Assembly: GCA_040437565.1 (NCBI GenBank)
Contig: JBDOQK010000015.1
Coordinates: 310,001 to 374,000, forward strand
Direction of reading: 5' to 3'
DNA from: Albugo candida
Taxonomy: Eukaryota
Length of the DNA stretch: 64,000 nt
Below are positions 10,919-28,300 of the stretch, piece by piece. Numbering within the stretch: position 1 is the stretch's first letter; each line of letters begins with the position of its first letter. A program made the position numbers and the translations under genes. The notes under the pieces were generated by a model. The model was not told the DNA's origin and did no database searches. It saw only the letters and a program-made list of their open reading frames with translations.

Positions 10919-13099
10919 TTGATTGACTTGAGTGTCGTTTCATCAGACCCAGTACAGTCCTCATTACACTTTTGCTTGCTGGAGAACACCATGATTCAGT
11001 CTTGCATTACATCACAGATAATCTCACGAAACTATTTCGTGGGTACTCCATATGGATCCAGAGAATTGGTATACGCTGACTACACAGCAACTGGGAAGTC
11101 ACTACATTCAATAGAAGAATTCATTTGCAAACATGTAATGCCGCTATATGGCAACACTCATACCAAAGCTTCCATTACTGGTTGTCAAAGTACACTCTAT
11201 CGAAATGAAGCTAGAGAGATCATTGCGAAAGCGATCAACGCTCATACTGACGGCGACGATGCCAAAGATGCTGTCTTTTATTCGGGATCCGGTGTAACTT
11301 CGGCTGTAAATAAACTTATCACAATGCTTGGCCTCACTCATTGCGGCCAAACTCGTCGATTTTCGAGTGACCGACCAGTTGTCTTTATCGGACCCTACGA
11401 GCACCATTCTAATATTTTACCTTGGCGTGAAAGTAAAGCTGATGTTGTTCATGTGAGAATGACGGACGATGGACACATTGATATGACTTATTTACGTCGA
11501 AAACTGAATCAGTACGTCCGACGTCCACTTAAAATCGGGGCTTTTTCCGCAGCTTCAAATATCACTGGAATTCTCACTGATGTTGATGCTATCACAGCAC
11601 TTTTGCATCAATTTGGGGCACTTGCTTTCTGGGACTATGCTACGGCAGCCCCATACGTATCCATGGACATGAACCCACCTGGGCAAGGGGAATACAAAGG
11701 AAAAGTCTACAAGGACGCAATCTATTTCTCTGGGCACAAATTCGTCGGTGGCCCTGGATCTCCAGGCATACTCGTCGTCAAAAAAAATCTTGTGCGGAAT
11801 CAAGTTCCGTCCGCTCCAGGTGGAGGCACGGTATTGTACGTCACGGAATCAAAACACTCCTATCTGACTGGACTGGAAGAACGGGAAGAAGGAGGAACAC
11901 CTGATATTCTAGGAAGTATCCGGCTTGCATTGGCCTTACAAGTCAAGCAGCAAATTGGTTCGGACCTTATCATGCGTATTGAAAGCGAACAAGTGGCATA
12001 TGTGCGTGAGTCGTTACGTGCAAACTCGAACATCTTACTACTCGGTGATCAAGAGGCTGATCAACTACCCATATTTTCCTTCCTGATTATATGTGGTGAT
12101 CGATATTTACATTACAATTTTGTGTGTACGTTGCTCAATGATTTATTTGGAATACAAACACGAGGCGGATGTGCCTGTGCAGGACCCTACGCCGCATCAT
12201 TATTAGGCATTTGGCAAAAAATGATCAATGAATACACAGCTGCGCTCGAGGATGGACTCATGCTACTCAAGCCCGGTTTCACTCGATTTAGTGTGACTTA
12301 TTTCATGGAAAACGACGAAATTGATTACATTCTTAAAGCCATTCATTATGTGGCTGATCATGGCTGGAAATTTCTGTCACAATACCGCTGCTGTCTGAAG
12401 TCAGGAGATTGGGTTCACATATCGACAACCGTCGATTCTTTAAAACATCTTAATCAGTTTCGTCCAACAACCATCAAAGATGCTGGACATTACGAGCCGG
12501 AGCCCGAGCAGGTACAGCAAGAAGATGTGATATTTTCACGGGACCAAAATTTCGAGCTGGCACGAATGCATGCCGAAAAGCATAAAATTGATTGCGATGA
12601 ATCCGTCATCTATCACGATGTCTTGAACAGAAAGTATGCATCGCTCAAATGGTACGCGGCACCTGACGAAGGTGAGCGTCTTGCAAATACGGCCCCCAAG
12701 CCGTTCTGGGGACATACATCGCTTAGTTTAGGGCGATCAGGTCGAGCTGATCTATCGCCTGTCCAAGTTCGCCATACTATGACGAATTCAAGTCATATTT
12801 CCAGCGAATCCTCCGCTAAACACTGGATGGAATGGGTAGATATATTTCGAAGAAAAGAAGAGGGGAAGAAGGACAAAGAGCCAATTCCTCGGAAATCTCT
12901 AGCCTCCTCTTGTGTCTACCCGAATCTGCGAAATGAAGACACGGATCCAGACTTGATACCTCTTGATTCATTAGAGGCTCACAAAAATTGGCTTCAAAGA
13001 ATATCGAGCAATTTCAAGCACAAAGACGAGCGAGTGAAGAGAAGGTCAAACTTTTTTAGAGCGCACACGCAAAGGGAGCGTCTTACGATATTCACATAG
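10919..13099 (+). CDS. Class V aminotransferase / cysteine desulfurase-like PLP enzyme (stand-alone)
   Basis: YADYTATG, YGNTHT, GPYEHHSNILPWRE, WDYA, PLP-lysine motif SGHKF, EEGGTP and RGGCACAGPY. The first in-frame ATG is 10991; the true start may lie in an upstream exon. Confidence 0.9.
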   Translation: MIDLSVVSSDPVQSSLHFCLLENTMIQSCITSQIISRNYFVGTPYGSRELVYADYTATGKSLHSIEEFICKHVMPLYGNTHTKASITGCQSTLYRNEAREIIAKAINAHTDGDDAKDAVFYSGSGVTSAVNKLITMLGLTHCGQTRRFSSDRPVVFIGPYEHHSNILPWRESKADVVHVRMTDDGHIDMTYLRRKLNQYVRRPLKIGAFSAASNITGILTDVDAITALLHQFGALAFWDYATAAPYVSMDMNPPGQGEYKGKVYKDAIYFSGHKFVGGPGSPGILVVKKNLVRNQVPSAPGGGTVLYVTESKHSYLTGLEEREEGGTPDILGSIRLALALQVKQQIGSDLIMRIESEQVAYVRESLRANSNILLLGDQEADQLPIFSFLIICGDRYLHYNFVCTLLNDLFGIQTRGGCACAGPYAASLLGIWQKMINEYTAALEDGLMLLKPGFTRFSVTYFMENDEIDYILKAIHYVADHGWKFLSQYRCCLKSGDWVHISTTVDSLKHLNQFRPTTIKDAGHYEPEPEQVQQEDVIFSRDQNFELARMHAEKHKIDCDESVIYHDVLNRKYASLKWYAAPDEGERLANTAPKPFWGHTSLSLGRSGRADLSPVQVRHTMTNSSHISSESSAKHWMEWVDIFRRKEEGKKDKEPIPRKSLASSCVYPNLRNEDTDPDLIPLDSLEAHKNWLQRISSNFKHKDERVKRRSNFFRAHTQRERLTIFT

Positions 13100-15063: not shown

Positions 15064-17965
15064 TTACTCGCATTTGATATTTCGATATATCCGTCTTGTG
15101 AATGCACTACTTCCCATGTACCCAACCGTTCCACACATCAGAAAGAATGCAAAGCAAAACAAGCTCCTACATAATCGCAGCACCGATTTGGTTAGTTGCA
15201 GCGATAAAACCAGCATTGTTAGACGTACATGTATCCAAAGTAGAAATATGTTTGTAAAAATCCGGACATGTTGGTTTTGTAGAAGTAAAAGTAGATAGAG
15301 TAAATGAAAACATAAATGGCTGTGCTTCCTCCAGCTGCAAAACTCGTCCAGTGCCATTTGTAATTCTCAGCATTTAGCGATACATATGTGCATACAATCG
15401 TAACGCAGAGCGTTACGACTAACAGTATCGTGAAAACCAATAACATAAATCCGTAGACGTAATAAAACTTGTAATTCCAGAACGATGCGAATATGAAATA
15501 CATCTCGATAAAGATGGAGCCAAAAGGAAGGATTCCTGTCATCCAAATCAGCGACCCAGGACGATAGTACCATCGAGCTGATGGGATTTCGCGAGGAAAC
15601 TTATTAACCCGACATGGAAATCCGCTTTTAGCGACTCCGTGACGTCCCAAAATGGTGCCCAAAACTGCCAGCGGACATGATACAAAGAACCATATCAAAA
15701 TCACTTGTACGATTGTTACGAAAGGAATTGCATAGGTTGTTCCGTACAGAACAGCTAGAGCATTGATGAAAAAGACCGATATATAAATCACGGTCGGTAA
15801 CAATGCTGAGGATAAACACATGGCCCGGATCCAATCTTTCGATACGCGTGGATAAAAGAATTGATGATAAAATGCTCCACTTGCATAGCCATTAGTGAGT
15901 GAAGACAAGGCATACACAGTCAAACCAGCAGAAACGATCCCACCCGGTTGCTTGTATAATGATGAGATTGCTGCGATAACCATCACGCTGAAAGATAATA
16001 CCAGCAGTTGTGATCCAGTACCAATCAGGGCAGAAAACAAAAGCAAATACGGTGGAGCACGAAAAACATCACCATGAAGTAATTTCCATCCGGCATTAGC
16101 ATCATCGCGAAGCAAGCTACTGGTACTTTCTAGCATCAGTTCTTCAGCATCCTCTTCGGCGATTCGGGCGTAGTCATTGCGCAGCGTGCGTAACAAAATC
16201 AAGGCCACTAAGCCGACAAGAAATATAACCATCATGAACGAATTGAATATCGAAAACCAGTGAATTTGATGTTCAAAAAACCTAGTGTAAATGAAAATCC
16301 GTAAGTAGTCAACTTCACTAGCAAAAAGAGACCTACTCATCTTCCAAGAAGCGATTGAATCGATCCTCGAATGTGATATCTGTGGTAGTCCATTTGACCT
16401 CATAGGTGAACTCGACTTTTCTATTTGGCACATTTTTNNNNNNNNNNNNNNNNNNNNNNNNNNNNNNNNNNNNNNNNNNNNNNNNNNNNNNNNNNNNNNN
16501 NNNNNNNNNNNNNNNNNNNNNNNNNNNNNNNNNNNNNAAATCACGGTCGGTAACAATGCTGAGGATAAACACATGGCCCGGATCCAATCTTTCGATACGC
16601 GTGGATAAAAGAATTGATGATAAAATGCTCCACTTGCATAGCCATTAGTGAGTGAAGACAAGGCATACACAGTCAAACCAGCAGAAACGATCCCACCCGG
16701 TTGCTTGTATAATGATGAGATTGCTGCGATAACCATCACGCTGAAAGATAATACCAGCAGTTGTGATCCAGTACCAATCAGGGCAGAAAACAAAAGCAAA
16801 TACGGTGGAGCACGAAAAACATCACCATGAAGTAATTTCCATCCGGCATTAGCATCATCGCGAAGCAAGCTACTGGTACTTTCTAGCATCAGTTCTTCAG
16901 CATCCTCTTCGGCGATTCGGGCGTAGTCATTGCGCAGCGTGCGTAACAAAATCAAGGCCACTAAGCCGACAAGAAATATAACCATCATGAACGAATTGAA
17001 TATCGAAAACCAGTGAATTTGATGTTCAAAAAACCTAGTGTAAATGAAAATCCGTAAGTAGTCAACTTCACTAGCAAAAAGAGACCTACTCATCTTCCAA
17101 GAAGCGATTGAATCGATCCTCGAATGTGATATCTGTGGTAGTCCATTTGACCTCATAGGTGAACTCGACTTTTCTATTTGGCACATTTTTCATATGAAAA
17201 AATGAATACACCATTTCGACTAATAATAATATACTGATTTGGCGTGATGGCTGTAGGGCGCTCCGAGTAAGTGAGATTGACGTGAATTATATTTTCTCCA
17301 TTATACGATATGGAGAATTTTTTATGTGTATACAGCACATGAGTTCCCACGGGAAACTAGATCGTAATGACTTATGAAATCATTGGGGAAGGCGAGACAA
17401 GAATCGAGAATAGTTTACCTCTTTCAGCAGTTCTGGCTCATCTTCAGGTTTCATGATCTTACCGACGAGCCCCCACACCGGCAGATCATCAACACTCAAT
17501 TGATACCAATAATGCTCATCAACCTGACATTGATAGTATCAGAAAAATAACAAAGGAAGTACTGCGTCGCTACGTACTGCAGCTGCAAATTTCAGTGCAT
17601 CTGCATCAGAAAGTATCTGGGAGCATAGAGTAGTATTTTCCGTATCAATTGCAAATCTTGTGATTTGGCCAGAGTTGAAAAGCTCATTTCCCTCCAAAAT
17701 CTCACCGATACCAAGTGCATGAGCTTCGGGTTCTTCCATTCCGATCGGCTTGCAAAACGGTAAGCTATTGTACGTATATGTCTCTTGTGGATTATTGTAT
17801 GGCCCGATCTTATTCACCCAGATTATGACATCGTCACCAACTCGATACTACAATGACAAAACTCGTACTCGAATTTTTCATCTTTAGGGAGGCACTTACT
17901 GCGTGATCGTCCATGTCCGCGCAGGTTTTTGTAAGAAAGAGAATCAATAGAGGTAAACAAGACAT
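15064..17965 (-). CDS. Transmembrane 9 superfamily (nonaspanin/EMP70, TM9SF3-like)
   Basis: Signal peptide MSCLPLLILFL, NKIGPYNNPQETY, EHQIHWFSIFNSFMMVIFL, GWKLLHGDVFR, GILPFGSIFIEMYFI and C-terminal KCE. Several introns; an internal segment is artefactually duplicated at gap 16438-16537. Confidence 0.93.
15785..17190. repeat. Apparently exact duplication 15785-16437 / 16538-17190 around 100-N gap
   Basis: Same sequence at offset 753 flanking the gap. Confidence 0.93.
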
Positions 17966-18100
17966 GAGGTACCGACGGACAGAGCACCTTGTGCTGTGGG
18001 GCTCGCATCGAGAAAGAAGCTCATGCATCTCGAATAGTTTGACACGTGTGAGATATAGCACAAAAAACAATTCTTTAGCAATTATATTAAGTTATAGGAT

Positions 18101-20013
18101 TTATTTAGTGACAGTGGAAGACGCTCGGTAGCATGGGAATCGCTTCAAATAAGGCATGTTGTCCAGTGCGCTAAGCGCCGCAAGCGACTTTGTGTTTGGT
18201 GTTAGCCAGTCGTCCTTTAGAAGCCCTTCCACAAAGTGCCCTTTTCCATCGCATGAGTTATACTCATAAGCATTCTCCGGGTTTAACGACCACATAAATC
18301 CTCCAGCATACCCTTGTTCCTTCATAATTTGGATCGTATACTCCACGGTACGCTGAATCGTTTTCATTGGGTGTCCATCGAGAGCATATAGACCTCCAAA
18401 CTCTCCCAGCAACACTGCGGAATCACGTTCGTCAGCCAGATAACCAAACATATCGTGCATGGTGCTTTCAATATTGTTTTTTAACGTTGCATTGTCCAAT
18501 TCTTCGCAGATGCCTTCAGTAGCATAAAGCGGTCCGTAAAAGTAGGGCTGCGGTGCAACTGCAGTCGTATAGTAATGTGGTCCCCACACCAACTTATTCG
18601 GAATCCCAAAGTGTGGCCGTACGGTCTTTGCTTTTTGCAATCCACCTCCCCACCAGTCATAATATTGCATCTTGTTACCTTCTGCCACAAGAGTATGCTC
18701 CCCTGCAATACCTTCAACAATGCCAACCCAACGTGGACATGCACGATGCATCACAGCGGCAATCATTTCAGCTCCTATCACAAAATCGTCTGAGGAGCCT
18801 GTTCCCCATGTTGCTTTATAAGGTTCATTTTTCAAGTCCAAGCCCATGACGTTCCAGAATCTGCCTTTGCATAGGGACGATGAAATTATGTCAACAGCAT
18901 TCAAATAATCCTTCTGAGATATACCGAGTGTTGCATCATACCAATTACCACTATCTTTCATGTTTGTCAGTCTATGTAAACTAATGAGAACACCCAATCC
19001 GTGCTGCCCCAAGCCGATGATGATCGATTTGAGTGTACTGATGAAATTGCGAATGCTAACCGCACGGTTGGTAGCCATGTTTATGATACCATCTGCTGGA
19101 GGGCTGTTACGCAATATATTCTCAATCGAAACTGGAATTCGCACAGCATTGAATTTGTTTCGAGCAAGGAATGCGCCTATTTCATATAATGTTGTTCCAT
19201 TTTGTGGGTTCTCCCACATCCCTAAAGGGATTGAAAGGGATGTTTCCATCCCGGACCAATTTACGCCTTTGATGTGCAACGGCGTTTCCTCTCCACCAGG
19301 TCCAACGGCCACGAGGTACCCACCCTTGCTCTGATAATCCGATAACGCACAATGTTGATCGGGGAAGTATTTTGGATTGCCCATCTGCCCGTCATCCGCT
19401 ACATCAAAAATCACGTCGCTTTTAGAGTCTCTGATTTTTCGCCTGAGTTGCTTATTGTATGACGCGATTAGAGCTTGCCTATGCCTTGCCCAATAGTGAC
19501 TGGAAGCGCCAAGAAAGAGACCACCTATAACTGCCATTGTGACAACAAGAAGAAATAATATGCCCGGCCATCGCTACAACACATCACATTACAATTATCA
19601 TTGAAACTCGGAAGCAACATGCCTACCTTGAGCCGACCATGAAAATCACGTGGTGTTTCTTTCGGAGAACGATCTTTTCCCACACGTAGTCCAATAGGAA
19701 ATTGATCACGACCTACTGAACCAGGCGTGCTCGCTAAATGTGCGGAGAGTATGTGTGTCGATGGAGTCACTGGACACACTAATTCCGTAAGTGGAGTCGG
19801 CACGAAGTTGGACTCTGTGTACGTGCACGTTGACCGAGTTTGAGGCCGTGAAAATATGCCGGATGTCGCATCTGGTACCCGAGAATTAGCGCTTTCTCCA
19901 CTCAAAGTCGGATGGCTCTCGCTAGCAACAGGTGGCTGTCTGCTATTTGCCTCTTGTTCATCGATCAACAAATCCTTACTTAAATTTCGTATGCTCAAAA
20001 CTTTATTGTGCAT
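18101..20013 (-). CDS. Glycoside hydrolase family 5 (endo-beta-glucanase/cellulase-like) with N-terminal membrane anchor
   Basis: IKGVNWSGME, FNAVRIP, acid/base motif DLKNEP, nucleophile motif LGEFGG and WSLNP. Intron 19574-19626 joins the N-terminal ORF to the TM segment RWPGILFLLVVTMAVIGGLFLG. Confidence 0.9.
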
Positions 20014-20175
20014 TATCTTCCTCTATCTGCTGCCACCTGGCTACTTCAAAGCAAACAGGTACGCTAAAGGTCTTTTGCGTCTGCTACTTTTTTGTTACTG
20101 CGTCGATTCTAAACCCACAACACCCACAAGAGCGTTCTATCGATCATTCTGTTGCAAAAAGTAGTACCATCCACA

Positions 20176-23100
20176 TCATTTTTTGTCACAAATAGACGAT
20201 TCTTTTACTGTACTGAGAATCCGATCTCGCGTTACATTGAGAGATCCGTACACATGGTCATCCAGTAGTGGAACAAGGGCTCGCCGAATGCAATGAAACA
20301 TCTGTGGAAGTAGAGTTTCTTCTTGCGCCAGTAGCTTCTTGACTCTAGCCCGTTCCTTTGGCTGCTCAAAACATGCCGGGCAATTTTCGTTTATAACTGG
20401 AAGTCGAGCGTCTGAAGCAAATTTTTGCAGTAGAAATTCACGAACGTAGATTAGCGGACGGATGATCTGAATATCGCGTGCATGATTCCAGTAATTGGCC
20501 TTCATTGTGCGTAGCTGACCATTGTGAAACAAAGACATGACAAAACTTTCGGCAATATCGTCTAAATGTTGACCAAGGACTAGCTTATTGTATCCGTTGG
20601 AACGACAACACTGATATAATAGACCTCGCTTCATCCGTGAGCAGTAGCTGCATATGGAAGTCCCATTCAGCTCACAGCTCGCGCGCTCAATAATGTTTTC
20701 TGACAAGTAATGATACTCCACACCAAGGGCCTTCATGTAATCCTTCAACGGGCTTGGATCGTATGACGCCGTCTGTGGATCCACTGTGGCACAAGCAAGA
20801 TCAAATTTAACTGGAGCACGCTTTTGTAGATGCAGGAGAATATGAAGAAGGCTGAGAGAGTCTTTTCCTCCAGATACACCGAGCAGCAGCCGATCTCCAT
20901 TTTGAATCATCTCCCACTGGAGAATTGCCTCGCCCACAGAATGAAGAATTTTTTTCGGAGGCTTTGGAAACAGCGTGACAGCGCTCATTGTCCTGGTAAT
21001 AGCCACGATCGCCTCATTGACTCGCAAAAAAGCCGTCTGGTTGGTTTTAGCATCACTACGAAGGCGAAGCGGATACTTCCCACCTTGAAATCGCTCTCTA
21101 TCAAGCATCAATCCATTAGTTTTGCAAATCGAGGTTTCGGGCACAAATGACTTTGATACAGGGCCATGGTCTTGTTCCGGCTTTTCCAAGCCATCTGACT
21201 CCCACTGCTTGTGCAAGGATCTTGCACGATAACGATCTGGTTGAATAGGCCCTACGATAGGCCTCAATCTTGGAATCCCACAAAAGTCTTCCTGCAAAAG
21301 GCAAACAACTTCAAAAGGATACACAAACCATCGCAAACTCTCGTACGATTCGTCCAGCATCCAAGCTGCCGACGGAGCAATCGGAGACTGTCTCGCCAAC
21401 CGAATGCAATCATCCGCCAGACAGTTTGCCATGTCCAAAGCCTTCTCAAACTCGGAGTTTATACTAATATCATCCTCCGAATTCGAACTCATGTTGGATA
21501 GAGCAGGATCAGAAAAGAAATGAGAAAGCCATTTTCGATCGTAGTGTTTTGTGAACCGAGTCATGTGCTTCCATTCTCCGCTTTTATGATTGAAGCGATA
21601 ATGAACCAAGAACTTCCAGCCGTGATTTGCAATAAAATGTATTGCCTTGAGAATAAAATCAACTTCTACATCTTGCATGAAATATGGAAAGCTAAGTCGA
21701 GTAAACCCAGGTCGGAGAACTTCTTTCCGAGAAAGCAAAGCCTGCTCTATTGCAAGAATATCGTTCTTGGCAATTCCCAACAAGCGCATGCTGTAAGGAC
21801 CGGCACAAGCACATCCACCACGAGATTGGATACCAAATAGATCGTTCAAAAGCGCACAGACAAAGTTGTAATGGAGAAAATGTTCATGGAAGCGGATAAG
21901 AAACGAGATGATAGGAAGTTGACGAACACCAGTTGGAGGTCCTAGTACGACAATGTTCTCATTTCTGTCTAAAGATCTTCGAACCTCAAGCACATGCTTT
22001 TGCTCAACTTCGGCAATTCGCTGGGTTCCGATGCGGTGTTTGATCTCGAATGCAAGACCAAGGCGAGCGCTTCCCAGTAAATCTGGACTTCCTCCTTCTT
22101 CTCGCTCTTCTCGGTTCGATAGATACCGATGATCTGATTCCGTCACGAAAAAAACAGTCCCACCACCTGGTGCAGAGGGAACCGGGTTCCTGACAAGTCG
22201 CTTTTTGACTATAAGCACGCCAGGTGAGCCTGGTCCACCAACAAATTTATGCCCGGAAAAAAAGATTGCATCCTTATACAAATACGGTCGGTCCTCTACA
22301 TTGGTGCATTCGATAGGGTTCATATTGATTGGAACATATGGAGCAGCCGATGCGTAATCCCATATAGCTATTGCTCCAAATCGATGTAACATCACTGTAA
22401 TCGCATCCACGTCAGTCAAGACACCAGTCACATTAGATGCAGCAGAAAAGGCACCAATGCATAACGACCGCGAGGAGTACTCGGTCAGCTTTTTCTTCAA
22501 GTCCTCTAGATCGATAAGCCCATCCTGGTTTTCGTTGATTGTCACGACATCTGCTAGAGTTTCTCGCCACGGAAGAAGGTTGGAATGGTGCTCAAAAGGC
22601 CCCACAAATATGACTGGCCGTGTCGGCACGGACGATATAGACGAACACGATTCTAACCCGAGAAGACTGACAAGTTTATTGACAGCTGCAGTGGTACCCT
22701 GACCAACAAGTAAGACACAGTCTTCGGCACTTTTTCCTGTCACAGCAGCATTGACGGCTTGAGCAATTATTTGACGTGCTTCATGACGGTAGCATGTGCT
22801 TTGTAGTCCCGTAATAGAAGTAGTCGTATGCGTGTTGGCGTAAAATGGCATGACTCGTTGATAAATATGGCGTTCGATACATTCAAGAGACCTGCTGCTT
22901 GCCGTGTAGTCCGCATAACAGATAAGCTTTAGCCCAAAAGGAGACTCGAAACGATGGTTCCGACCAACTAGTTGAGAATTTATCCATTCGGGTGTGCAGA
23001 ACCTCGAACCTACTGCATCTTCACGCAAGCTTGAGTGAGTTGTCGATTCCTGCATTGTTGCCTTCTGGGTCGTTGTATCTTCTAGCTCATCACAGAAGTA

Positions 23101-23271
23101 GCGTGCGACTGATTTGGACTCTATCAGTGCATTATGTTGATTTTGGATCAGCATACGTCGGGTTTCAGCTCTTCTCAGCCAATGATAATTCAAGTAGTAC
23201 CTGCAGCGATCAGTACACTGTACCGAAACTACACTTCCCCAACGCGTTCTTTTAACACTGTAAGGAATCAT
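20176..23271 (-). CDS. Fusion: class V aminotransferase/cysteine desulfurase-like domain + TtcA-type tRNA 2-thiocytidine sulfurtransferase
   Basis: One stop-free 1031-codon frame with SGHK (22246-22257) and RGGCACAGPY (21793-21822), then PP-loop SGGKDS (20857-20874), CSYC (20641-20652), GQHLDD, IIRPL and CPAC (20371-20382). The start may be 23154 or 23055. Confidence 0.9.
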   Translation of the reverse strand: MIPYSVKRTRWGSVVSVQCTDRCRYYLNYHWLRRAETRRMLIQNQHNALIESKSVARYFCDELEDTTTQKATMQESTTHSSLREDAVGSRFCTPEWINSQLVGRNHRFESPFGLKLICYADYTASSRSLECIERHIYQRVMPFYANTHTTTSITGLQSTCYRHEARQIIAQAVNAAVTGKSAEDCVLLVGQGTTAAVNKLVSLLGLESCSSISSVPTRPVIFVGPFEHHSNLLPWRETLADVVTINENQDGLIDLEDLKKKLTEYSSRSLCIGAFSAASNVTGVLTDVDAITVMLHRFGAIAIWDYASAAPYVPINMNPIECTNVEDRPYLYKDAIFFSGHKFVGGPGSPGVLIVKKRLVRNPVPSAPGGGTVFFVTESDHRYLSNREEREEGGSPDLLGSARLGLAFEIKHRIGTQRIAEVEQKHVLEVRRSLDRNENIVVLGPPTGVRQLPIISFLIRFHEHFLHYNFVCALLNDLFGIQSRGGCACAGPYSMRLLGIAKNDILAIEQALLSRKEVLRPGFTRLSFPYFMQDVEVDFILKAIHFIANHGWKFLVHYRFNHKSGEWKHMTRFTKHYDRKWLSHFFSDPALSNMSSNSEDDISINSEFEKALDMANCLADDCIRLARQSPIAPSAAWMLDESYESLRWFVYPFEVVCLLQEDFCGIPRLRPIVGPIQPDRYRARSLHKQWESDGLEKPEQDHGPVSKSFVPETSICKTNGLMLDRERFQGGKYPLRLRSDAKTNQTAFLRVNEAIVAITRTMSAVTLFPKPPKKILHSVGEAILQWEMIQNGDRLLLGVSGGKDSLSLLHILLHLQKRAPVKFDLACATVDPQTASYDPSPLKDYMKALGVEYHYLSENIIERASCELNGTSICSYCSRMKRGLLYQCCRSNGYNKLVLGQHLDDIAESFVMSLFHNGQLRTMKANYWNHARDIQIIRPLIYVREFLLQKFASDARLPVINENCPACFEQPKERARVKKLLAQEETLLPQMFHCIRRALVPLLDDHVYGSLNVTRDRILSTVKESSICDKK

Positions 23272-23649
23272 TAAGGCTCATTCGCAGTCACTGAGCTCAT
23301 ACGACATCTCTATCAACCTCTCTATGAGTACAATTGTACCAGTCAATCATAAAATCTCATCAGTTGCCGATAGAGAAGATGTGTTTTTCTAGACGGTGAG
23401 GTCATGGGATGCTCCAATCTTCTACTATTTTGCCATAACGAGCACTTCATCAAGATTTCAGCTCTAGATCATTTTTTCATGAGCGCTAACGCGGCGACAT
23501 CGGGTTCCTGATATTTTCTGATACTTCCCAGTTATGCTATCTGGAAATGCTCAGTGGCAATCCTGGAAGCTGCGCCGGTGTTTTTGTTAGGATGGGGGCT
23601 GTAAGACATGCTTGATTACATTGAAGACGAAACCAATACCTTTATGCAT

Positions 23650-24400
23650 CTGATGTACGCAACAGACCGTAATAGCATGCTATCTCATGGATGCTAGATA
23701 TAAAATTTTGTCAAGCCCACGCACGTGAGATTGAATTGTACAGCGTTTGCCATAGAACGCATGTGTCAATTGACCTTTTAGCGTATAGCTCAGCTGAAGT
23801 GTACACCCCGATTCGCAACATGGCTGAAGTATCGTATAACACACCACGCTATCTGCTAACACAGATCGTGAGGAACTTTACATGAACGTTCCGAATGAGA
23901 CGCCTTGATAAGCGATGTTCCGCGTACTCGACAATCGTCAACAAGTGTTGAAGCTACAGCTCCTTGCGCCGAATGATAGGAACTTTAGATTGTCTGAAAG
24001 ACTACCCGACACAGCCTGATTGGCGTGCACCCAAGAGAAAACTGACAAGCTTGATACGAGATCTTTAGCGTGCCATGCCATCATCTAATCTCCTCACAAT
24101 CAAGTCAGGTACGCTACTAAGAATACTTGGATTGAGATATAGCTATCTTGTCACCATAATCAGTACTGCACGGAAATATTCCACGATATTGGCACAAGAG
24201 CGTTGAAAGGGCACAACAGTCGAAATACAAAACATGTTAAATTTCTTCCCTGAACATTTTATATAGTGATAGCTCTTTTTACACTCCAAGAAAGCCAACA
24301 GATGTTCAATATGTTCTGTGAGACACCCACTATAGATTTGAAGTCTAACAGCCTGCGTCGATACTGAAGATTTGTTCTATTGTGTAGAAGTAGAGAATTA
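23650..24400 (+). mobile_element. Possible degenerate Ty1/copia RT-RNaseH remnant
   Basis: Fragments ARYKIL, EVYTPIRNM, DIA, LYSDS, RKPT and TIDLKS occur in the order of copia RYKARLV, ETFAPVARM, PDIA, YSDADW, RKST and ISWKS. Frames are broken. Confidence 0.3.
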
Positions 24401-24656
24401 CTCATTTACCTGTTACCGCGTCCTTATTCATGATAGATAGAACACGTATATACGATATGATTGCATTATTATCTAATTCTACGGGAGCCATTCAATAGTA
24501 CTCAGTATCGCATACTGATTTCGATTACAAACCAGCTGACACTGCAGACGGCATGTGCATTTCTACACATTCCGAAGGTGCGCCTCCTTCGTGTATTCAG
24601 CTTGAGCCTCATACCTTCGCATAGATGCTGCAATCGAGAAAAGTCAATTCATTCCC

Positions 24657-26486
24657 ATGAAAAGTGTTCCTTCACGAAGCAGATCACAGCGCACAAAGTG
24701 CGAATCAGCTACACAACAAAATCACGAATGCAGCGGTAGTACATGCTCTAGTACAATCGCAAATCGAAGGAGTGAAAACTCATTGGAGACACTCTGTGCA
24801 CGTTTCTGTAAATTGTACAGCAACGAGACCGAACCACTACAGATTGACGTCGCAGCGTCAAAGCTTTGTGAGTAATATTATCACACCAGCGTTGACATCG
24901 CTGACTTACCTGGATGCATAGGTATTCAGCGCCGAAGGATGTATGAGATCTTCAACATAATTCAAAGTGTTGGGCTCATAGCGCGAATTCGGACTGGTCT
25001 CTATCAATGGCAAAGCAATGAGATTATGATTGCAAAGCTCGTGTCTCTCAAACGCTCAGGCACGGAGACGTTTAAGAAGTGGAATTTAGGGGAAAGCATA
25101 ATCACGAGCGGAGCGAAAACTATCAATCGAAAAAAGGCCATTTCGACGCTGATGGGTGAATGCTTCCTTCAAGTGCTGCTGTCTGAGGTACGGCTGCTTC
25201 CGTCCAAAGATCTTTGACGAGCTCAGAGATGAGAATTCTGTAGAAATTTCCACAACCGATCGTGCTGGAAGACGTGGCTGACATAGTCGCATCTTTAGTT
25301 GGTGGTACAAAACATATATGTTTGTATTGCATTTATAACTTCTGCATGTTCGCTGGTATTTATGCATTCTTTTCTCCATACAGCGTGCTCGAGGCGCTTG
25401 TACGATATCGCGAATGTTTTTTGTGGCCTCGGGTTGCTGAATAGAACCGCTCTGAAGCTCACCACTGACAGAAATTGCCGCAAGCGGCGAATGTTCAATT
25501 GGTGTGGTCCGATAGTTCTTTCAAGTCTTTCTGATCAAAATCCATTATCTTGTTCGAAATCATCATGTGGATCAGTCACTCAAACGACTTCTCCATCAGG
25601 AGAGAGTCAAGAGTCACAAAGTAAATCAGTCTCGGGCCTGCTCATCAACGAGGATAGCTCCTCTGAGCTAGCTATTCCAGTACCTCCAGAATCGCAAAAT
25701 AATGTCATGAATCTTTGTGACACTCGAGAACATAGAAGAAGCATTAGTGGTAGTGACATTCCGAAATCATCCGACGAACTCAAGTTGCAGGTCAATTCAT
25801 TGATAAAAGCGCTAGAAGACGCCAAAGCTAGGGAAAGGAAGCTTTTGAAGCGCATCCATCTGCTTGAAAATCGTATTACAGAATCATCAGGCGCTGAGTT
25901 AGATACTCCATCGAGCCCTATTGTACAACTTCATAAAGAGGAAATTATCCGACCAACAACTATAGGAGGCAAAAGACTTTTCAGTCCCATGCTATCGCAA
26001 GAACTATCCCCTGTAACGCAGCAAATACTTGGGGAAGGATGTACCCAAGATCAGCTGAGGCAATATGTTGCATTTCATATATCACCCCTGATTTTGACAT
26101 CACTCAAGTCTGGAACCAAAACCCATCTCATGGAGCCACAGAGCCTTGCCTCAAATGAAAACATCCAAACGAAACGACGCAAAATACGTGTTGGACCTAG
26201 TCTTGTTGACCCAACCGAAACCGACAGCTTGAAAAACAATACTGACACTTTCACGCGTACAAACTCAAGAATGAGCTACTCCGAGTGTGGAAAACATAAG
26301 TGTAGCTATAATTCTGAGCGAACTGGACAAGAACAAGACAACCATCGAGAATGCTCAACTCAAAATTCTCAATCAAGCATTAACTCTAGTAAATCAAGTG
26401 CGACGATGCTATATCCTCACTCATCAGTAACTCTCTCTCCATTAGCAAATGCATCCTCTTCAATACACGATCAGCAGGCATCGTAA
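24657..26486 (+). CDS. Atypical E2F (E2F7/8/DEL-type) transcription factor with two winged-helix DNA-binding domains
   Basis: RRSENSLETLCARF...RRRMYEIFNIIQSVGLI and a second RRLYDIANVFCGLGLL...FNWCG; introns including about 24869-24921. Confidence 0.8.
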
Positions 26487-26599
26487 GTTTTTTTGCAACA
26501 TCAAACTAGCTCTTAGTTGACCATGCTTTTCAGTAGAAACCATAAGCTTCAGTGTTCCAGTGCACCCAAATCCTCAACACTAGCAGTACAATTCTCTCA

Positions 26600-28300
26600 A
26601 CATTTCTTGCTGGAGTCACCGTCGTCAATAGCTCGAACATTTGACGGCCTTTCGTCACCGTGATTATGGCAGAAGCTGAGTGAAACTAAGCATCGAAAAC
26701 ATTTGGAAAAAAATTGGCACGACGAGCTCGAGCGTCCCAACGTGTCGTATTTTGATGTAGTGTCCAGAATATTGCTGATTGCTTCTATCAATTATTGCAG
26801 TTAAATTTGGTTGTATCCAATTTGTTTTACGGTTTACACCGTTCGGCATTTCATATATGTAGGAGCTGTATCACTCATGATCGCATGAGAACGATATCCT
26901 AGCGCTATTTAAGCTTTTGGCATTATGAGGGTAGTCTGGGTGCTCTCCACCTTGATTGGCAGCCTTCATAATGCTTAGGCGTCACAACCTAAAGCATTTT
27001 CGAAACGGAGCGGTCTGGGAACTTTGTACTGCTGGATTGCCTTCGACTCCGCTCTCATTGTAGCAGGATGTGATATAGAAATCGTCCACTCGATACACGC
27101 TGTGGACTGGACTGAGAAAAAGCACTTAGAGCACTTTTGAAATGGCTCTTGTTCTTGTGACGCATGCGCCATTCTAGCTATGAACTCTCTCACAAAACTT
27201 ATGGGATTGTTTATAAAAATGACCTTGGACCCTTGGTGCTTTGGTGCTGGTGTTAGCTCTGAATCCAGCTTGCAGGTCAGGCCGTCGATAGGAAATGACA
27301 ATACGGACACAACCTTTTAGCTGTACACCTTAACTTTATTGGATCCGTCGTCCCGTGGTGAAACGTTGCTCAGCTCACTCGTGCTTGTCGTGTATTGCCT
27401 GTCACCTGAGCTGTTAGATATACTTTTGATATTTGTTTTAGTCTTCTTCCAGTTATGTCTTGCATATAGCCTCCCAAAAACTTGCTCACGCTGATATCGT
27501 CGATGCGTTACAAATGGCCCAATGTTACGCTGATCGCCGCAATATGTTTTTCAATTATCTCTAGCAGCTGGCCTTTCGATCCTCGATGCGCTTGCTGTGC
27601 ATAACTTCCCGTCAATGAAACTCAACCGCACGCGTCCTCCTTCCTTTAGATATGCCTCAAATCCAGCAGTAGATTAAGGAGAGATTCCTGCCTAAAACCA
27701 ACTTAGTTGACACTTTCCGTAAATCTATCGGATGTGTGATTCAGTTAATAGCTTCTGAATGAAGAAATGACAATATAATGTGATCAAAGTGAACATAAAG
27801 TCAAATCATCCATCTGCATTAAATAAATTGGCTAAAGCGAACAATGAATTCGAATCTCAGCAACGGTCGTACTGAGCCAGAGGCCGAAGGTTCTTGGTTC
27901 CTGCAATACTTACCTGCCCTATGTAGATGGAGCACTCGAATTTGCTTTTGGTGCAATCGAGGGATTAAACACGTAGCGTAGATGCGAACAATGTCCTTCT
28001 CCGAGGGCTGTAAGCGGTGAAATGACCGCAGCTCTTTGTGTAGCGTTCCAGACATATGCTTGGCAATCCTGAATAACGGCCGCCTAAACTCATGCATCGC
28101 GCTAAAAGCTCTTGTTGAAGTCACGTTGATCCGGGCACATGTTGTTTGGCTGCATGCACCATGTCTTTTCGTGCATAATCTGCACCGAGCGAAGAATTGC
28201 ATGTTTTGCTACGCTATCTTCATATATGCCATTTTTTTTCAACGCGTCTCCAATAGCAATCCCGCAGAGATCAATCTGCACAGACAATTGTGGAATGACT
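26600..28300 (-). mobile_element. Possible degenerate Ty3/gypsy pol remnant
   Basis: SVQIDLCGIAIGDAL, HEK, AMHEFR and HRAGK resemble RNase H motifs (VxCDASxxAIG, HDKE, ALxxFR, HRPGK). FVREFIARMAHASQEQ and NILD lie downstream. Very degenerate. Confidence 0.25.

What the first reader, a model, noticed from the sequence alone, without database searches (positions are those of the whole stretch)
20176..23271. Cysteine desulfurase-TtcA fusion: candidate self-contained tRNA thiolation enzyme in a eukaryote
Seen: one uninterrupted frame joins a class V PLP domain (SGHK lysine; RGGCACAGPY at the position of the SufS RxGHHCA persulfide loop) through a linker to a PP-loop domain with SGGKDS, CSYC, GQHLDD, IIRPL and CPAC, and without the flanking zinc fingers of Ncs6/CTU1/TtuA. 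Established: that layout is TtcA-type, the [4Fe-4S] enzyme making s2C32 in bacterial tRNA, which depends on a separate desulfurase (IscS). s2C32 is not a canonical eukaryotic tRNA modification. Inference: this protein may mobilise sulfur from cysteine and channel it intramolecularly to tRNA (or use selenium, or another RNA target), implying an unrecognised modification pathway in this lineage.
Basis: partly seen in the sequence, partly recalled or inferred. Interest (0 to 1): 0.88.

Follow-up and report, generated by a model that had tools for sequence, protein, structure and literature searches.

The report
Fused cysteine desulfurase–TtcA tRNA thiolase gene
This white-rust oomycete gene really does join a sulfur-releasing enzyme to a bacterial-type tRNA-thiolating enzyme in one expressed protein, but the same fusion is widespread in eukaryotes and was noted in sea-slug work in 2026, so it is an interesting new member rather than a new kind.

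Summary
An uninterrupted 1031-codon frame (20176-23271, minus strand) encodes a SufS-like class-V PLP domain and a TtcA-family PP-loop domain. An RNA-derived contig covers the whole frame without splicing.

The catalytic residues are present and nearly invariant in 121 homologous fusions:
- PLP Lys K342.
- Persulfide Cys C489, aligned on the SufS catalytic Cys.
- PP-loop S800-S805.
- Cluster ligands C874, C877 and C967, aligned on the essential Cys of E. coli TtcA.
- No flanking zinc fingers.

The "linker" is mostly a confidently folded helical module; only 698-725 is disordered.

The PP-loop domain scores best as TtcA (207 bits; TilS 67, TtuA 48, NcsA 31) but below the E. coli-type cut-off. 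It is 53-60% identical to a TtcA subfamily of sulfur-oxidising Gammaproteobacteria.

The fusion is not lineage-specific. It occurs in many stramenopiles, Ostreococcus, sponges and arthropods. A September 2026 preprint already described it in molluscs together with the first eukaryotic s2C32. No enzyme of this type has been tested biochemically.

Most likely function: a self-supplying s2C32 tRNA thiolase (about 0.7). Verdict: a new member of a known kind, of moderate interest. A stand-alone paralogue of the desulfurase module lies 8.5 kb away.

The parts
20176..23271 (-). Whole ORF, 1031 codons plus the stop at 20176-20178. Single exon.
   Evidence: An RNA-derived contig covers 19627-24266 without any joint.
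22975..23271 (-). N-terminal region, residues 1-99. It is not conserved and is modelled as disordered (1-86). An alternative start, M40, is at 23152-23154.
   Evidence: occupancy 0.1 for residues 1-40; residues 1-39 have 9 K+R and 2 D+E.
21292..22974 (-). SufS-like class-V PLP cysteine-desulfurase module, residues 100-660. It includes a family-specific C-terminal helical extension (541-660).
   Evidence: Pfam PF00266. SufS subfamily HMM 124 bits. Foldseek top hits are SufS, target TM-score 0.83-0.87. The window's stand-alone paralogue aligns across residues 100-654.
22246..22257 (-). SGHK motif. K342 is the predicted PLP Schiff-base lysine.
   Evidence: Aligned to the SufS 'fsghk' motif. K is present in 121 of 121 fusions.
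21793..21822 (-). RGGCACAGPY loop. C489 is the predicted persulfide-forming Cys, C487 is a second invariant Cys, and R484 is invariant.
   Evidence: C489 aligns on the SufS catalytic Cys. C487 is present in 121/121, C489 in 120/121 and R484 in 120/121. GGCxCAG is present in 41 of 42 fused and stand-alone family members.
20965..21291 (-). Fusion-specific connector, residues 661-769. The disordered part is 698-725 (21097-21180). Helix 740-764 leads into the TtcA domain.
   Evidence: Low conservation. pLDDT is below 50 only for 698-725. Coordinates.
20179..20964 (-). TtcA-family PP-loop ATP-pyrophosphatase domain, residues 770-1031. It is collinear with bacterial TtcA-family proteins of about 250 aa.
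   Evidence: NF007972 TtcA 207.5 bits over 762-1006. 53-57% identical to 14 bacterial proteins end to end. 33% identical to E. coli TtcA. The fold is nearest to NcsA and TtuA.
20857..20874 (-). PP-loop SGGKDS (S800-S805), the ATP-binding and adenylation motif.
   Evidence: 121 of 121 fusions. Aligned to the same motif in E. coli TtcA.
20641..20652 (-). CSYC. C874 and C877 are predicted [4Fe-4S] ligands.
   Evidence: Aligned to E. coli TtcA C122 and C125, which are essential ligands, and to CSYC of TtuA PH0300. Each is present in 118 of 121 fusions.
20371..20382 (-). CPAC. C967 is the predicted third [4Fe-4S] ligand. C964 is the counterpart of the dispensable Cys.
   Evidence: Aligned to the second CxxC of E. 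coli TtcA, which is C210/C213 in the RefSeq protein. I take this pair to be the paper's Cys219/Cys222. C964 is present in 118/121 and C967 in 117/121.
10991..13099 (+). Stand-alone paralogue of the desulfurase module (702 aa). It has the same RGGCACAGPY, SGHKF and EHHSN motifs and no PP-loop domain.
   Evidence: tblastn 52% identity over 565 aa. ORF. Pfam finds Aminotran_5 plus a weak Aminotran_1_2 match and no PP-loop domain. It nests in the oomycete clade with the fused genes.

Best explanation
The gene encodes one polypeptide that is both a sulfur mobiliser and a tRNA thiolase.

Inferred mechanism:
1. The N-terminal SufS-like module binds PLP at K342. It removes sulfur from L-cysteine and forms a persulfide on C489 in the GGCxCAG loop.
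2. The C-terminal TtcA-family domain holds a [4Fe-4S] cluster on C874, C877 and C967, with one open iron site.
3. That domain adenylates C2 of a tRNA cytidine through the PP-loop (S800-S805) and replaces the oxygen with the cluster-bound sulfide. The expected product is 2-thiocytidine, most probably at position 32.
4. The fused desulfurase is the dedicated sulfur donor, within one chain or across a dimer. This removes the dependence on a separate IscS/Nfs1-type enzyme.

Shown here:
- The gene, its expression as one unspliced unit, the two folds, and the conservation of the catalytic residues.
- The family placement and the wide eukaryotic distribution.

Inferred:
- Desulfurase activity, cluster binding, the substrate and position, the direct hand-over of sulfur, and the cell compartment.
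For: Gene structure and expression:
- Uninterrupted 1031-aa ORF.
- Contigs of runs X1 and X6 carry GT..AG intron-skipping joints in the neighbouring genes. The DNA contig of X10 lacks them. One such contig spans 19627-24266 with no joint inside the ORF.

Desulfurase module:
- Pfam Aminotran_5, E 2.2e-38. SufS-family HMM 124 bits.
- Alignment to solved SufS puts K342, H228/H229, R484 and C489 on the SufS PLP-Lys, EHH, Arg and catalytic Cys.
- Fold match to SufS with target TM-score 0.83-0.87.
- K342 121/121, C489 120/121, R484 120/121, R525 121/121.

Thiolase domain:
- TtcA is the best NCBIfam model at 207.5 bits, against TilS_N 66.7, TtuA 48.2 and NcsA 30.7.
- TtcA is also the top hit in 9 of 9 diverse fusions, at 132-216 bits.
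- BLASTP to E. coli TtcA gives E 9e-47, with C874/C877/C967 on the essential ligands.
- PP-loop 121/121; C874, C877 and C964 each 118/121; C967 117/121.
- Only two CxxC motifs in the protein, so no zinc fingers.
- The nearest solved folds are the [4Fe-4S] thiolases NcsA and TtuA.

Is the bacterial sister subfamily a TtcA equivalent?
- It is the only strong TtcA-family match in 5 of 5 genomes checked.
- In a sample of 201 genomes of the class, 98 have an E. coli-type match over the cut-off and 60 have only the sub-cut-off type.
- 153 of the 158 matching genomes show a single match.

The fusion is under selection as a unit:
- All 120 best full-length relatives carry both Pfam domains.
- The window protein is collinear with a sponge fusion at 44% identity, including the interdomain LRWF.YP motif.
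- The full-length model has pTM 0.84, with only 698-725 disordered between the modules.

Product:
- A preprint reports s2C32 in Aplysia tRNA-Lys(UUU). It names the homologous fusion as the protein its BLASTP search with E. coli TtcA retrieved (passages read).
Against: - The PP-loop domain is below the curated TtcA equivalog cut-off (207.5 against 272) and only 33% identical to the tested E. coli enzyme. In my tree it groups apart from the E. coli type. My literature searches found no tested member of its subfamily, so position 32, and even cytidine, are extrapolations.
- The N-terminal module is far below the SufS and CsdA cut-offs (124 against 475.1) and has Cys-x-Cys where SufS has His-His-Cys. 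From my own knowledge, type-II desulfurases normally need an acceptor protein (SufE, SufU or CsdE). None was looked for, because no genome is held.
- No tRNA modification data exist for any stramenopile in the searched library.
- The enzyme-to-s2C link in Aplysia rests on homology only.
- I could not measure the distance between C489 and the cluster site, because model coordinates are not exposed.
- None of 80 bacterial loci has a desulfurase-like gene within 6 kb of the TtcA-like gene. The pairing therefore has no prokaryotic operon precedent.
Confidence: 0.7

Rival explanations
1. Same chemistry, different target. The PP-loop domain thiolates another nucleoside or position (for example a uridine, or cytidine outside position 32), another RNA class, or organellar tRNA rather than cytosolic tRNA C32.
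For: The domain scores below the TtcA equivalog cut-off and belongs to a subfamily distinct from the tested E. coli enzyme. Its nearest solved folds act on U34 (NcsA) and U54 (TtuA). If translation starts at M1, residues 1-39 are basic (9 K+R, 2 D+E), which could be a targeting peptide.
Against: The TtcA model beats the TtuA, NcsA and TilS models by 140 bits or more. The zinc fingers of TtuA and Ncs6 are absent. The bacterial sister subfamily largely replaces E. coli-type TtcA in genomes rather than co-occurring with it. s2C32 was found in an animal whose BLASTP hit to E. coli TtcA is this fusion. The basic N-terminus is not conserved, and the A. laibachii gene model starts at M40.
Confidence: 0.15
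2. The N-terminal module is not the sulfur donor for the thiolase. It could be a selenocysteine lyase (giving 2-seleno products), a C-S lyase or desulfhydrase with another role, or a module that builds or repairs the domain's Fe-S cluster. Sulfur for tRNA would then come from elsewhere.
For: Scores to the SufS and CsdA models are low (124 bits or less against cut-offs of 475-661), and there is a weak hit to selenocysteine lyase SclA (41.9 bits). The Cys-x-Cys loop differs from SufS. The same module exists alone in oomycetes, plants and bacteria, so it has uses other than TtcA.
Against: All SufS catalytic positions tested by alignment are kept and nearly invariant. SufS-family models score above the SclA model. 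From my own knowledge, SufS/CsdB enzymes act on both cysteine and selenocysteine, so the SclA hit is not specific. Class-V desulfurase domains fused to other thiolation domains recur in nature (MnmA, ThiI and PAPS_reduct clusters). This fits a donor-acceptor logic.
Confidence: 0.1
3. Gene-model or assembly artefact: two adjacent genes read as one, or a polyprotein that is always cleaved into separate enzymes.
For: The preprint raises post-translational cleavage in the variable linker as a possibility for the Aplysia protein. The window protein has a disordered loop at 698-725.
Against: There is one frame without a stop. An RNA-derived contig is continuous across it. The same architecture appears in all 120 best relatives from independent genomes and transcriptomes. 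The interdomain helices are modelled with confidence and the model's pTM is 0.84. Cleavage after translation cannot be excluded with these tools.
Confidence: 0.03

Closest known systems
Aplysia californica 'IscS-TtcA' fused protein (LOC101861551, 1177 aa), described in bioRxiv 10.64898/2026.09.27.754811 (passages read)
   Same: Same order of domains: a CsdA/SufS-like domain followed by a TtcA-like domain. The PLP Lys is conserved, and two conserved Cys two residues apart are proposed as the active residues. The PP-loop is SGGKDS, and the Cys arrangement CSxC ... CPAC is the same. RNA-seq supports one transcript. A stand-alone paralogue of the desulfurase domain is present in the same genome.
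   Different: The animal gene has introns, and the authors call its 405-aa linker poorly conserved and flexible. Here the gene is intron-less, and most of the interdomain region is folded and shared with paralogues. I could not align the Aplysia sequence itself, because it is not held. My animal comparison is with the sponge Oscarella. The preprint did not identify the catalytic Cys by alignment to IscS. Alignment to SufS does identify it here. The preprint does not mention stramenopiles or algae in the passages I read.
E. coli TtcA, tRNA cytosine(32) 2-sulfurtransferase (Bouvier et al. 2014, PMC4081106; abstract and passages read)
   Same: PP-loop, the CxxC ... CxxC cysteines with three essential cluster ligands, no zinc fingers, and collinear over 239 residues.
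   Different: Only 33% identical, below the equivalog cut-off, and in a different clade. E. coli TtcA is a separate protein that depends on IscS and IscU. The window protein lacks the roughly 55-residue C-terminal tail of E. coli TtcA.
TtcA-family proteins of about 250 aa in sulfur-oxidising Gammaproteobacteria (for example Thermithiobacillus tepidarius, Thiohalocapsa, Candidatus Thiodiazotropha)
   Same: 49-61% identical to the C-terminal domain end to end, with the same motifs. They are the sister group in the tree.
   Different: They are stand-alone, and none of 80 loci has a desulfurase-like neighbour. My searches found no tested member.
SufS/CsdA type-II cysteine desulfurases (for example PDB 8d8s, 5zsk, 1i29)
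   Same: Fold, PLP Lys, EHH motif, Arg, and the catalytic Cys in the C-terminal loop.
   Different: 22-26% identity. The loop reads GGCxCAG instead of GHHCA. About 120 extra C-terminal residues (541-660). Scores are far below the family cut-offs.
TtuA and NcsA/Ncs6/Ctu1 [4Fe-4S] tRNA 2-thiouridine synthetases (PDB 3vrh, 5mkp, 6scy)
   Same: Nearest solved folds (query TM-score about 0.70). The PP-loop and the CSYC ligands align exactly.
   Different: The window protein has no N- or C-terminal zinc fingers. HMM scores are 48 and 31 bits, against 207 for TtcA.
Other natural desulfurase-thiolase fusions (Atlas clusters): Aminotran_5+MnmA in Myxococcota, Aminotran_5+ThiI in Bacillota, Aminotran_5+PAPS_reduct in Methanobacteriota
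   Same: The same design idea: a class-V PLP domain joined to a PP-loop-type sulfur-inserting domain.
   Different: Different acceptor domains, and prokaryotic. These are leads from feature similarity only (scores 0.83-0.87) and were not examined further.

Membership tests
TtcA (tRNA 2-thiocytidine synthetase; NCBIfam NF007972) | PP-loop SGGxDS ATP-binding motif | tested here: met
   SGGKDS at 800-805, aligned to the E. coli motif. Present in 121/121 fusions.
TtcA (tRNA 2-thiocytidine synthetase; NCBIfam NF007972) | Three Cys that ligate the [4Fe-4S] cluster (the paper's Cys122, Cys125, Cys222) | tested here: met
   C874, C877 and C967 align on them. They are present in 118, 118 and 117 of 121 fusions. 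Equating the paper's 219/222 with RefSeq 210/213 is my inference from their order in the sequence.
TtcA (tRNA 2-thiocytidine synthetase; NCBIfam NF007972) | Score at or above the curated equivalog cut-off (272 bits) | tested here: not met
   207.5 bits. 132-216 bits in 9 of 9 other fusions. The protein is therefore a member of the TtcA family in the broad sense, not the E. coli-type equivalog.
TtcA (tRNA 2-thiocytidine synthetase; NCBIfam NF007972) | TtcA is the best-scoring model among the PP-loop thiolase and TilS models | tested here: met
   207.5 bits against 66.7 (TilS_N), 48.2 (TtuA), 30.7 (NcsA) and 22.6 (LarE).
TtcA (tRNA 2-thiocytidine synthetase; NCBIfam NF007972) | No flanking zinc-finger CxxC pairs (distinguishes it from TtuA and Ncs6) | tested here: met
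   Only CSYC and CPAC occur in the whole protein. Pfam reports no zinc-ribbon family.
TtcA (tRNA 2-thiocytidine synthetase; NCBIfam NF007972) | Makes s2C at position 32 of tRNA; binds an oxygen-sensitive [4Fe-4S] cluster; is a dimer | not testable with these tools
   Needs tRNA mass spectrometry, spectroscopy and biochemistry.
Type-II (SufS/CsdA-like) cysteine desulfurase | PLP-binding Lys in the S-x-H-K motif | tested here: met
   K342 aligns to the SufS motif. Present in 121/121.
Type-II (SufS/CsdA-like) cysteine desulfurase | Catalytic Cys in the short C-terminal loop after a conserved Arg | tested here: met
   R484 and C489 align on the Arg and Cys of SufS 'RxGHHCA'. Each is present in 120/121.
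Type-II (SufS/CsdA-like) cysteine desulfurase | Class-V aminotransferase fold resembling SufS | tested here: met
   Foldseek E about 1e-24, target TM-score 0.83-0.87, to SufS structures.
Type-II (SufS/CsdA-like) cysteine desulfurase | Score at or above the SufS subfamily cut-off (475.1) or the CsdA cut-offs | tested here: not met
   124 bits for TIGR01979 and 56-58 bits for the CsdA models. This is a separate subfamily marked by the GGCxCAG loop.
Type-II (SufS/CsdA-like) cysteine desulfurase | Works with a dedicated sulfur acceptor (SufE, SufU or CsdE) | not tested
   No genome is held for the window. The feature itself is recalled from my own knowledge. In this protein the fused TtcA domain is the proposed acceptor.
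TtuA / NcsA / Ncs6-Ctu1 | N- and C-terminal zinc fingers flanking the PP-loop domain | tested here: not met
   Scores are 48.2 and 30.7 bits against cut-offs of 450 and 500.
TilS (tRNA lysidine synthetase) | Score at or above the N-domain cut-off (93.6 bits) | tested here: not met
   66.7 bits.

The most novel reading that the evidence does not exclude
The fusion marks an old, broadly distributed eukaryotic route in which a distinct 'GGCxCAG' family of cysteine desulfurases supplies sulfur directly to a TtcA-type thiolase. This family occurs fused to TtcA and also stand-alone in oomycetes, plants and chytrids. Under this reading the route is independent of the mitochondrial Nfs1/IscS-type desulfurase. 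s2C32 would be a common but overlooked tRNA modification in stramenopiles, prasinophyte algae, sponges, molluscs and arthropods. The stand-alone paralogues would be unrecognised sulfur donors for other pathways.
Probability: 0.3. Interest if true: 0.75.

Novelty: new member of a known kind. Interest (0 to 1): 0.52.

Why it matters
- If the protein works as inferred, one polypeptide carries out the whole path from free cysteine to a thiolated tRNA base. That would make it a compact system for studying how a persulfide is handed to an Fe-S-dependent thiolase.
- It would show that s2C, long regarded as a bacterial and archaeal modification, is made in several eukaryotic supergroups.
- For oomycetes it identifies a conserved enzyme of bacterial type. 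Whether animals or plants hosting these parasites have a counterpart was not examined here.
- The stand-alone paralogues suggest a further family of eukaryotic desulfurases with no assigned role.
- The value is tempered. The architecture is already in databases, with names such as 'tRNA 2-thiocytidine biosynthesis protein ttca', and in a 2026 preprint.

Tried and rejected
- Complex prediction on residues 87-697 against 726-1031 scored 0.00 twice. That is no verdict, so it says nothing for or against docking of the two halves.
- The look-up of sequencing runs listed no holder on record as RNA. X1-X4 were only guessed to be RNA. I treated X1 and X6 as RNA only after one search showed intron-skipping joints that the DNA contig of X10 lacks. 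X1 and X6 look like one data set filed twice, so they count as one source. Run X5 covered only fragments.
- No whole genome is held for the window. I therefore could not look for Nfs1, Ctu1/Ncs6, SufE-like acceptors or tRNA genes with C32. The window itself has no tRNA gene.
- Outgroups. The control genomes of the genome search are only tallied. No TtuA, NcsA or Ctu1 sequence could be put in the tree, so the exclusion of those families rests on HMM scores and motifs, not on phylogeny. Both trees were 'quick' searches rooted on very long outgroup branches (TilS, SufS). Their deep branching and roots are unreliable.
- Bacterial operon origin: tblastn of the desulfurase module against 80 bacterial loci gave no hit. 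Rejected.
- Single against multiple origin of the stand-alone paralogues. In the N-domain tree the fused and stand-alone labels interleave (10 changes). At least one 'stand-alone' row (P0320) still contains SGGKDS and is probably a truncated fusion, so I draw no firm conclusion.
- Literature. Searches found the fusion only in the Aplysia preprint. Its supplementary files (gene information, species list) are closed and were not seen.
- A 96-sequence NCBIfam scan was over the size limit and was replaced by 9 proteins.
- One search failed because I gave out-of-frame coordinates; it was redone.

Full report
**What is there.**
The minus strand carries an open frame of 1031 codons from 23271 down to the stop at 20176-20178. 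Pfam finds two families at E<=0.01: Aminotran_5 (residues 119-538, E 2.2e-38) and the PP-loop family ATP_bind_3 (795-960, E 1.5e-16).

**Is it one expressed gene?**
- No run is on record as RNA.
- When contigs of four runs were laid on 17000-27000, runs X1 and X6 showed twelve short GT..AG (or CT..AC) skipping joints in the neighbouring genes. X1 and X6 are probably the same data filed twice.
- The 89.8-kb contig of X10 runs through all of those joints, so X1/X6 behave as RNA assemblies and X10 as DNA.
- One X1/X6 contig (6129 nt) covers 19627-24266 without any joint, which includes the whole ORF and its interdomain region.
- Contigs cannot exclude rare isoforms. This one also merges with the downstream gene, so it shows continuity rather than transcript ends.
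- The 1 kb upstream of the ATG (23272-24266) is in the same contig but has no ORF longer than 64 aa.
- The A. laibachii orthologue (84% identical) starts at the position equivalent to M40, and residues 1-40 have almost no counterpart in homologues. M40 may therefore be the real start.

**The N-terminal module.**
- phmmer against solved structures finds SufS-type desulfurases (best E about 1e-26).
- That alignment puts K342 on the PLP lysine, H228/H229 on the SufS 'EHH' motif, and R484 and C489 on the Arg and the persulfide Cys of 'RxGHHCA'.
- The full-length AlphaFold model (96-sequence alignment, mean pLDDT 83.5, pTM 0.84) matches SufS structures with target TM-scores of 0.83-0.87.
- In my alignment of the window protein with its 120 best relatives, K342, C487 and R525 are present in 121/121, C489 and R484 in 120/121, and H228/H229 in 119/121.
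- The module is nevertheless a subfamily of its own. It scores 124 bits on the SufS subfamily model (cut-off 475.1) and carries Cys-x-Cys in place of His-His-Cys.
- It extends to about residue 660, with conserved helices that the stand-alone paralogues share.
- That R525 corresponds to the second substrate-binding Arg of SufS is my recollection. It was not aligned here.

**The C-terminal domain.**
- Among NCBIfam models, TtcA is by far the best (207.5 bits over 762-1006). TilS_N scores 66.7, TtuA 48.2 and NcsA 30.7.
- TtcA is also the top hit in 9 of 9 diverse fusions (132-216 bits).
- Against the authentic E. coli protein (fetched), BLASTP gives 33% identity over 239 residues, E 9e-47.
- In that alignment C874/C877 fall on C122/C125, and C964/C967 fall on the second CxxC pair.
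- Bouvier et al. (PMC4081106; abstract and passages read) showed that Cys122, Cys125 and Cys222 are essential and ligate a [4Fe-4S] cluster, while Cys219 is dispensable.
- The RefSeq protein numbers the second pair 210/213. I equate the two numberings by their order in the sequence.
- The protein has only these two CxxC motifs, and its alignment to TtuA begins after TtuA's N-terminal zinc finger. The Ncs6/TtuA layout is therefore excluded.
- A separate model of the domain (pLDDT 81) is closest to the [4Fe-4S] thiolases NcsA and TtuA (query TM-score about 0.70), then to TilS. My sequence and fold searches of the PDB returned no TtcA structure.

**Which TtcA?**
- All scores are below the curated equivalog cut-off of 272.
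- The domain is 53-57% identical, end to end, to bacterial 'TtcA family' proteins of about 250 aa.
- In one genome per species, 480 of 566 candidate stretches encoded relatives. The best 80 (49-61% identity) are mostly sulfur-oxidising Gammaproteobacteria, including Chromatiaceae, Sedimenticolaceae, Thiotrichales and Thermithiobacillus.
- In 5 of 5 such genomes this protein is the only strong TtcA-family match (200-228 bits), with no E. coli-type copy.
- In a sample of 201 genomes of that class, 158 have a match at E<=1e-20. Of these, 98 are over the cut-off (305-495 bits) and 60 have only the lower-scoring type (about 200-237 bits).
- 153 of the 158 show a single match. Of the 5 genomes with two matches, G070 has two over the cut-off. 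The second matches of the other four are not in the listed rows.
- The two types thus mostly replace each other. This fits equivalent function but does not prove it.
- In a quick IQ-TREE of 65 PP-loop domains, the groupings were:
  - E. coli-type sequences: a clade on a very long branch (13 rows, SH-aLRT 98).
  - The bacterial short type: one clade (28 rows, 88).
  - 21 stramenopile and prasinophyte-related fusions: one clade (99).
  - The two Oscarella sponge proteins: another clade (94).
  - The base of the tree is unresolved, and the TilS root is unreliable.

**Distribution.**
- All 120 best full-length relatives carry both domains. Named ones include:
  - Oomycetes: Phytophthora, Pythium, Globisporangium, Peronospora, Bremia, Plasmopara, Saprolegnia, Aphanomyces, Achlya and Albugo laibachii.
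  - The brown alga Pylaiella.
  - Chrysoparadoxa and Paraphysomonas.
  - The labyrinthulids Hondaea and Mucochytrium.
- Further look-ups add Tribonema, Spumella, Epipyxis, MAST-4 (with an extra thioredoxin-like domain), Ostreococcus mediterraneus and two Oscarella sponges.
- The protein atlas shows clusters with the same two families whose commonest known phylum is Arthropoda.
- The sponge protein is collinear with the window protein at 44% identity, including the interdomain LRWF.YP motif. This favours one origin of the fusion.
- None of the 80 bacterial loci has a desulfurase-like gene within 6 kb.

**Prior knowledge.**
- Six full-text searches found the fusion only in bioRxiv 10.64898/2026.09.27.754811, of which I read passages.
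- It identifies a 1177-aa CsdA-TtcA protein as the hit retrieved with E. coli TtcA. It finds the fusion in 28 mollusc species and, as data not shown, in birds and insects.
- It notes a stand-alone CsdA-like paralogue.
- It contains no enzymology, and stramenopiles are not mentioned in the passages I read. Its supplements are closed.
- Database names such as 'tRNA 2-thiocytidine biosynthesis protein ttca' (Globisporangium) show that annotation pipelines already see the architecture.

**Mechanism.**
The best reading is a self-supplying s2C32 synthetase. Cysteine is converted to a persulfide on C489, with PLP bound at K342. The sulfur then passes to the open iron of the [4Fe-4S] cluster on C874/C877/C967 and attacks adenylated C32. 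The last step is the scheme that Bouvier et al. propose for TtcA.
- The fold, the residues, the expression and the conservation of the fusion are shown.
- Activity, substrate, position, direct hand-over and compartment are inferred.
- The docking test gave no verdict, and I could not measure distances in the model.

**Surroundings.**
- A 702-aa stand-alone paralogue of the desulfurase module lies at 10991-13099 on the plus strand. It is 52% identical and has the same loop, Lys and EHH motifs.
- Judging by adjacent or nearby locus tags and accessions, such paralogues sit close to the fusion gene in A. laibachii, P. nicotianae and P. oleae.
- In the N-domain tree the Albugo stand-alone genes fall inside the oomycete clade that holds the fused genes (SH-aLRT 98). 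This suggests duplication of the module within oomycetes.
- The downstream neighbour is a GH5 cellulase-like gene.

**Verdict.**
This is a real and well-conserved gene. However, the enzyme belongs to a TtcA sister subfamily, is not specific to this lineage, and its kind is already in print as a preprint. I rate it a new member of a known kind, of moderate interest, because no member has been characterised biochemically and nothing is known for stramenopiles.

Noticed in passing
window 10991-13099 (+): Stand-alone 702-aa paralogue of the desulfurase module. It is 52% identical and has the same RGGCACAGPY, SGHKF and EHHSN motifs, and it lies 8.5 kb from the fusion gene. Similar linkage is suggested in other oomycetes by neighbouring locus tags.
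   Followed up: partly
window 23272-24266: About 1 kb upstream of the fusion's ATG lies in the same RNA-derived contig, but it has no ORF longer than 64 aa. It could be a long 5' leader, or overlap with the divergent plus-strand gene that starts near 24258.
   Followed up: partly
window 18101-20013 (-): The two ORFs 18101..19537 and 19525..20013 are joined in RNA contigs by removal of a 53-nt intron (19574-19626). They form one GH5 cellulase-like gene whose upstream exon begins only about 160 nt below the fusion's stop.
   Followed up: partly
window 17032-17900 and 24575-26537: Neighbouring genes show runs of very short introns (47-64 nt) with GT..AG ends in RNA-derived contigs. At 26482 there are two alternative acceptor sites 3 nt apart.
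   Followed up: no
proteins P0059, P0060 (cluster includes MAST-4 stramenopile proteins): Some fusions carry an additional thioredoxin-like region (Pfam PF00085, PF08534, PF13905, PF13098 and PF00578 are listed). This could be a built-in reductant.
   Followed up: no
proteins P0274 (Cladochytrium), P0309 (Zopfochytrium): Stand-alone family members from chytrid fungi nest among Phytophthora stand-alone paralogues in the N-domain tree. This could reflect gene transfer or contamination.
   Followed up: no
E. coli TtcA, L001:11017-11949 (-) = P0242: The paper's cysteine numbers 46, 200, 219 and 222 do not match the RefSeq protein, which has Cys at 45, 191, 210 and 213. Numbers 122 and 125 do match.
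   Followed up: yes
protein atlas clusters: Class-V aminotransferase domains fused to other sulfur-inserting domains appear in prokaryotes: PAPS_reduct in Methanobacteriota, MnmA in Myxococcota, and ThiI in Bacillota.
   Followed up: no
window 1-64000: ARAGORN finds no tRNA gene in the window.
   Followed up: yes
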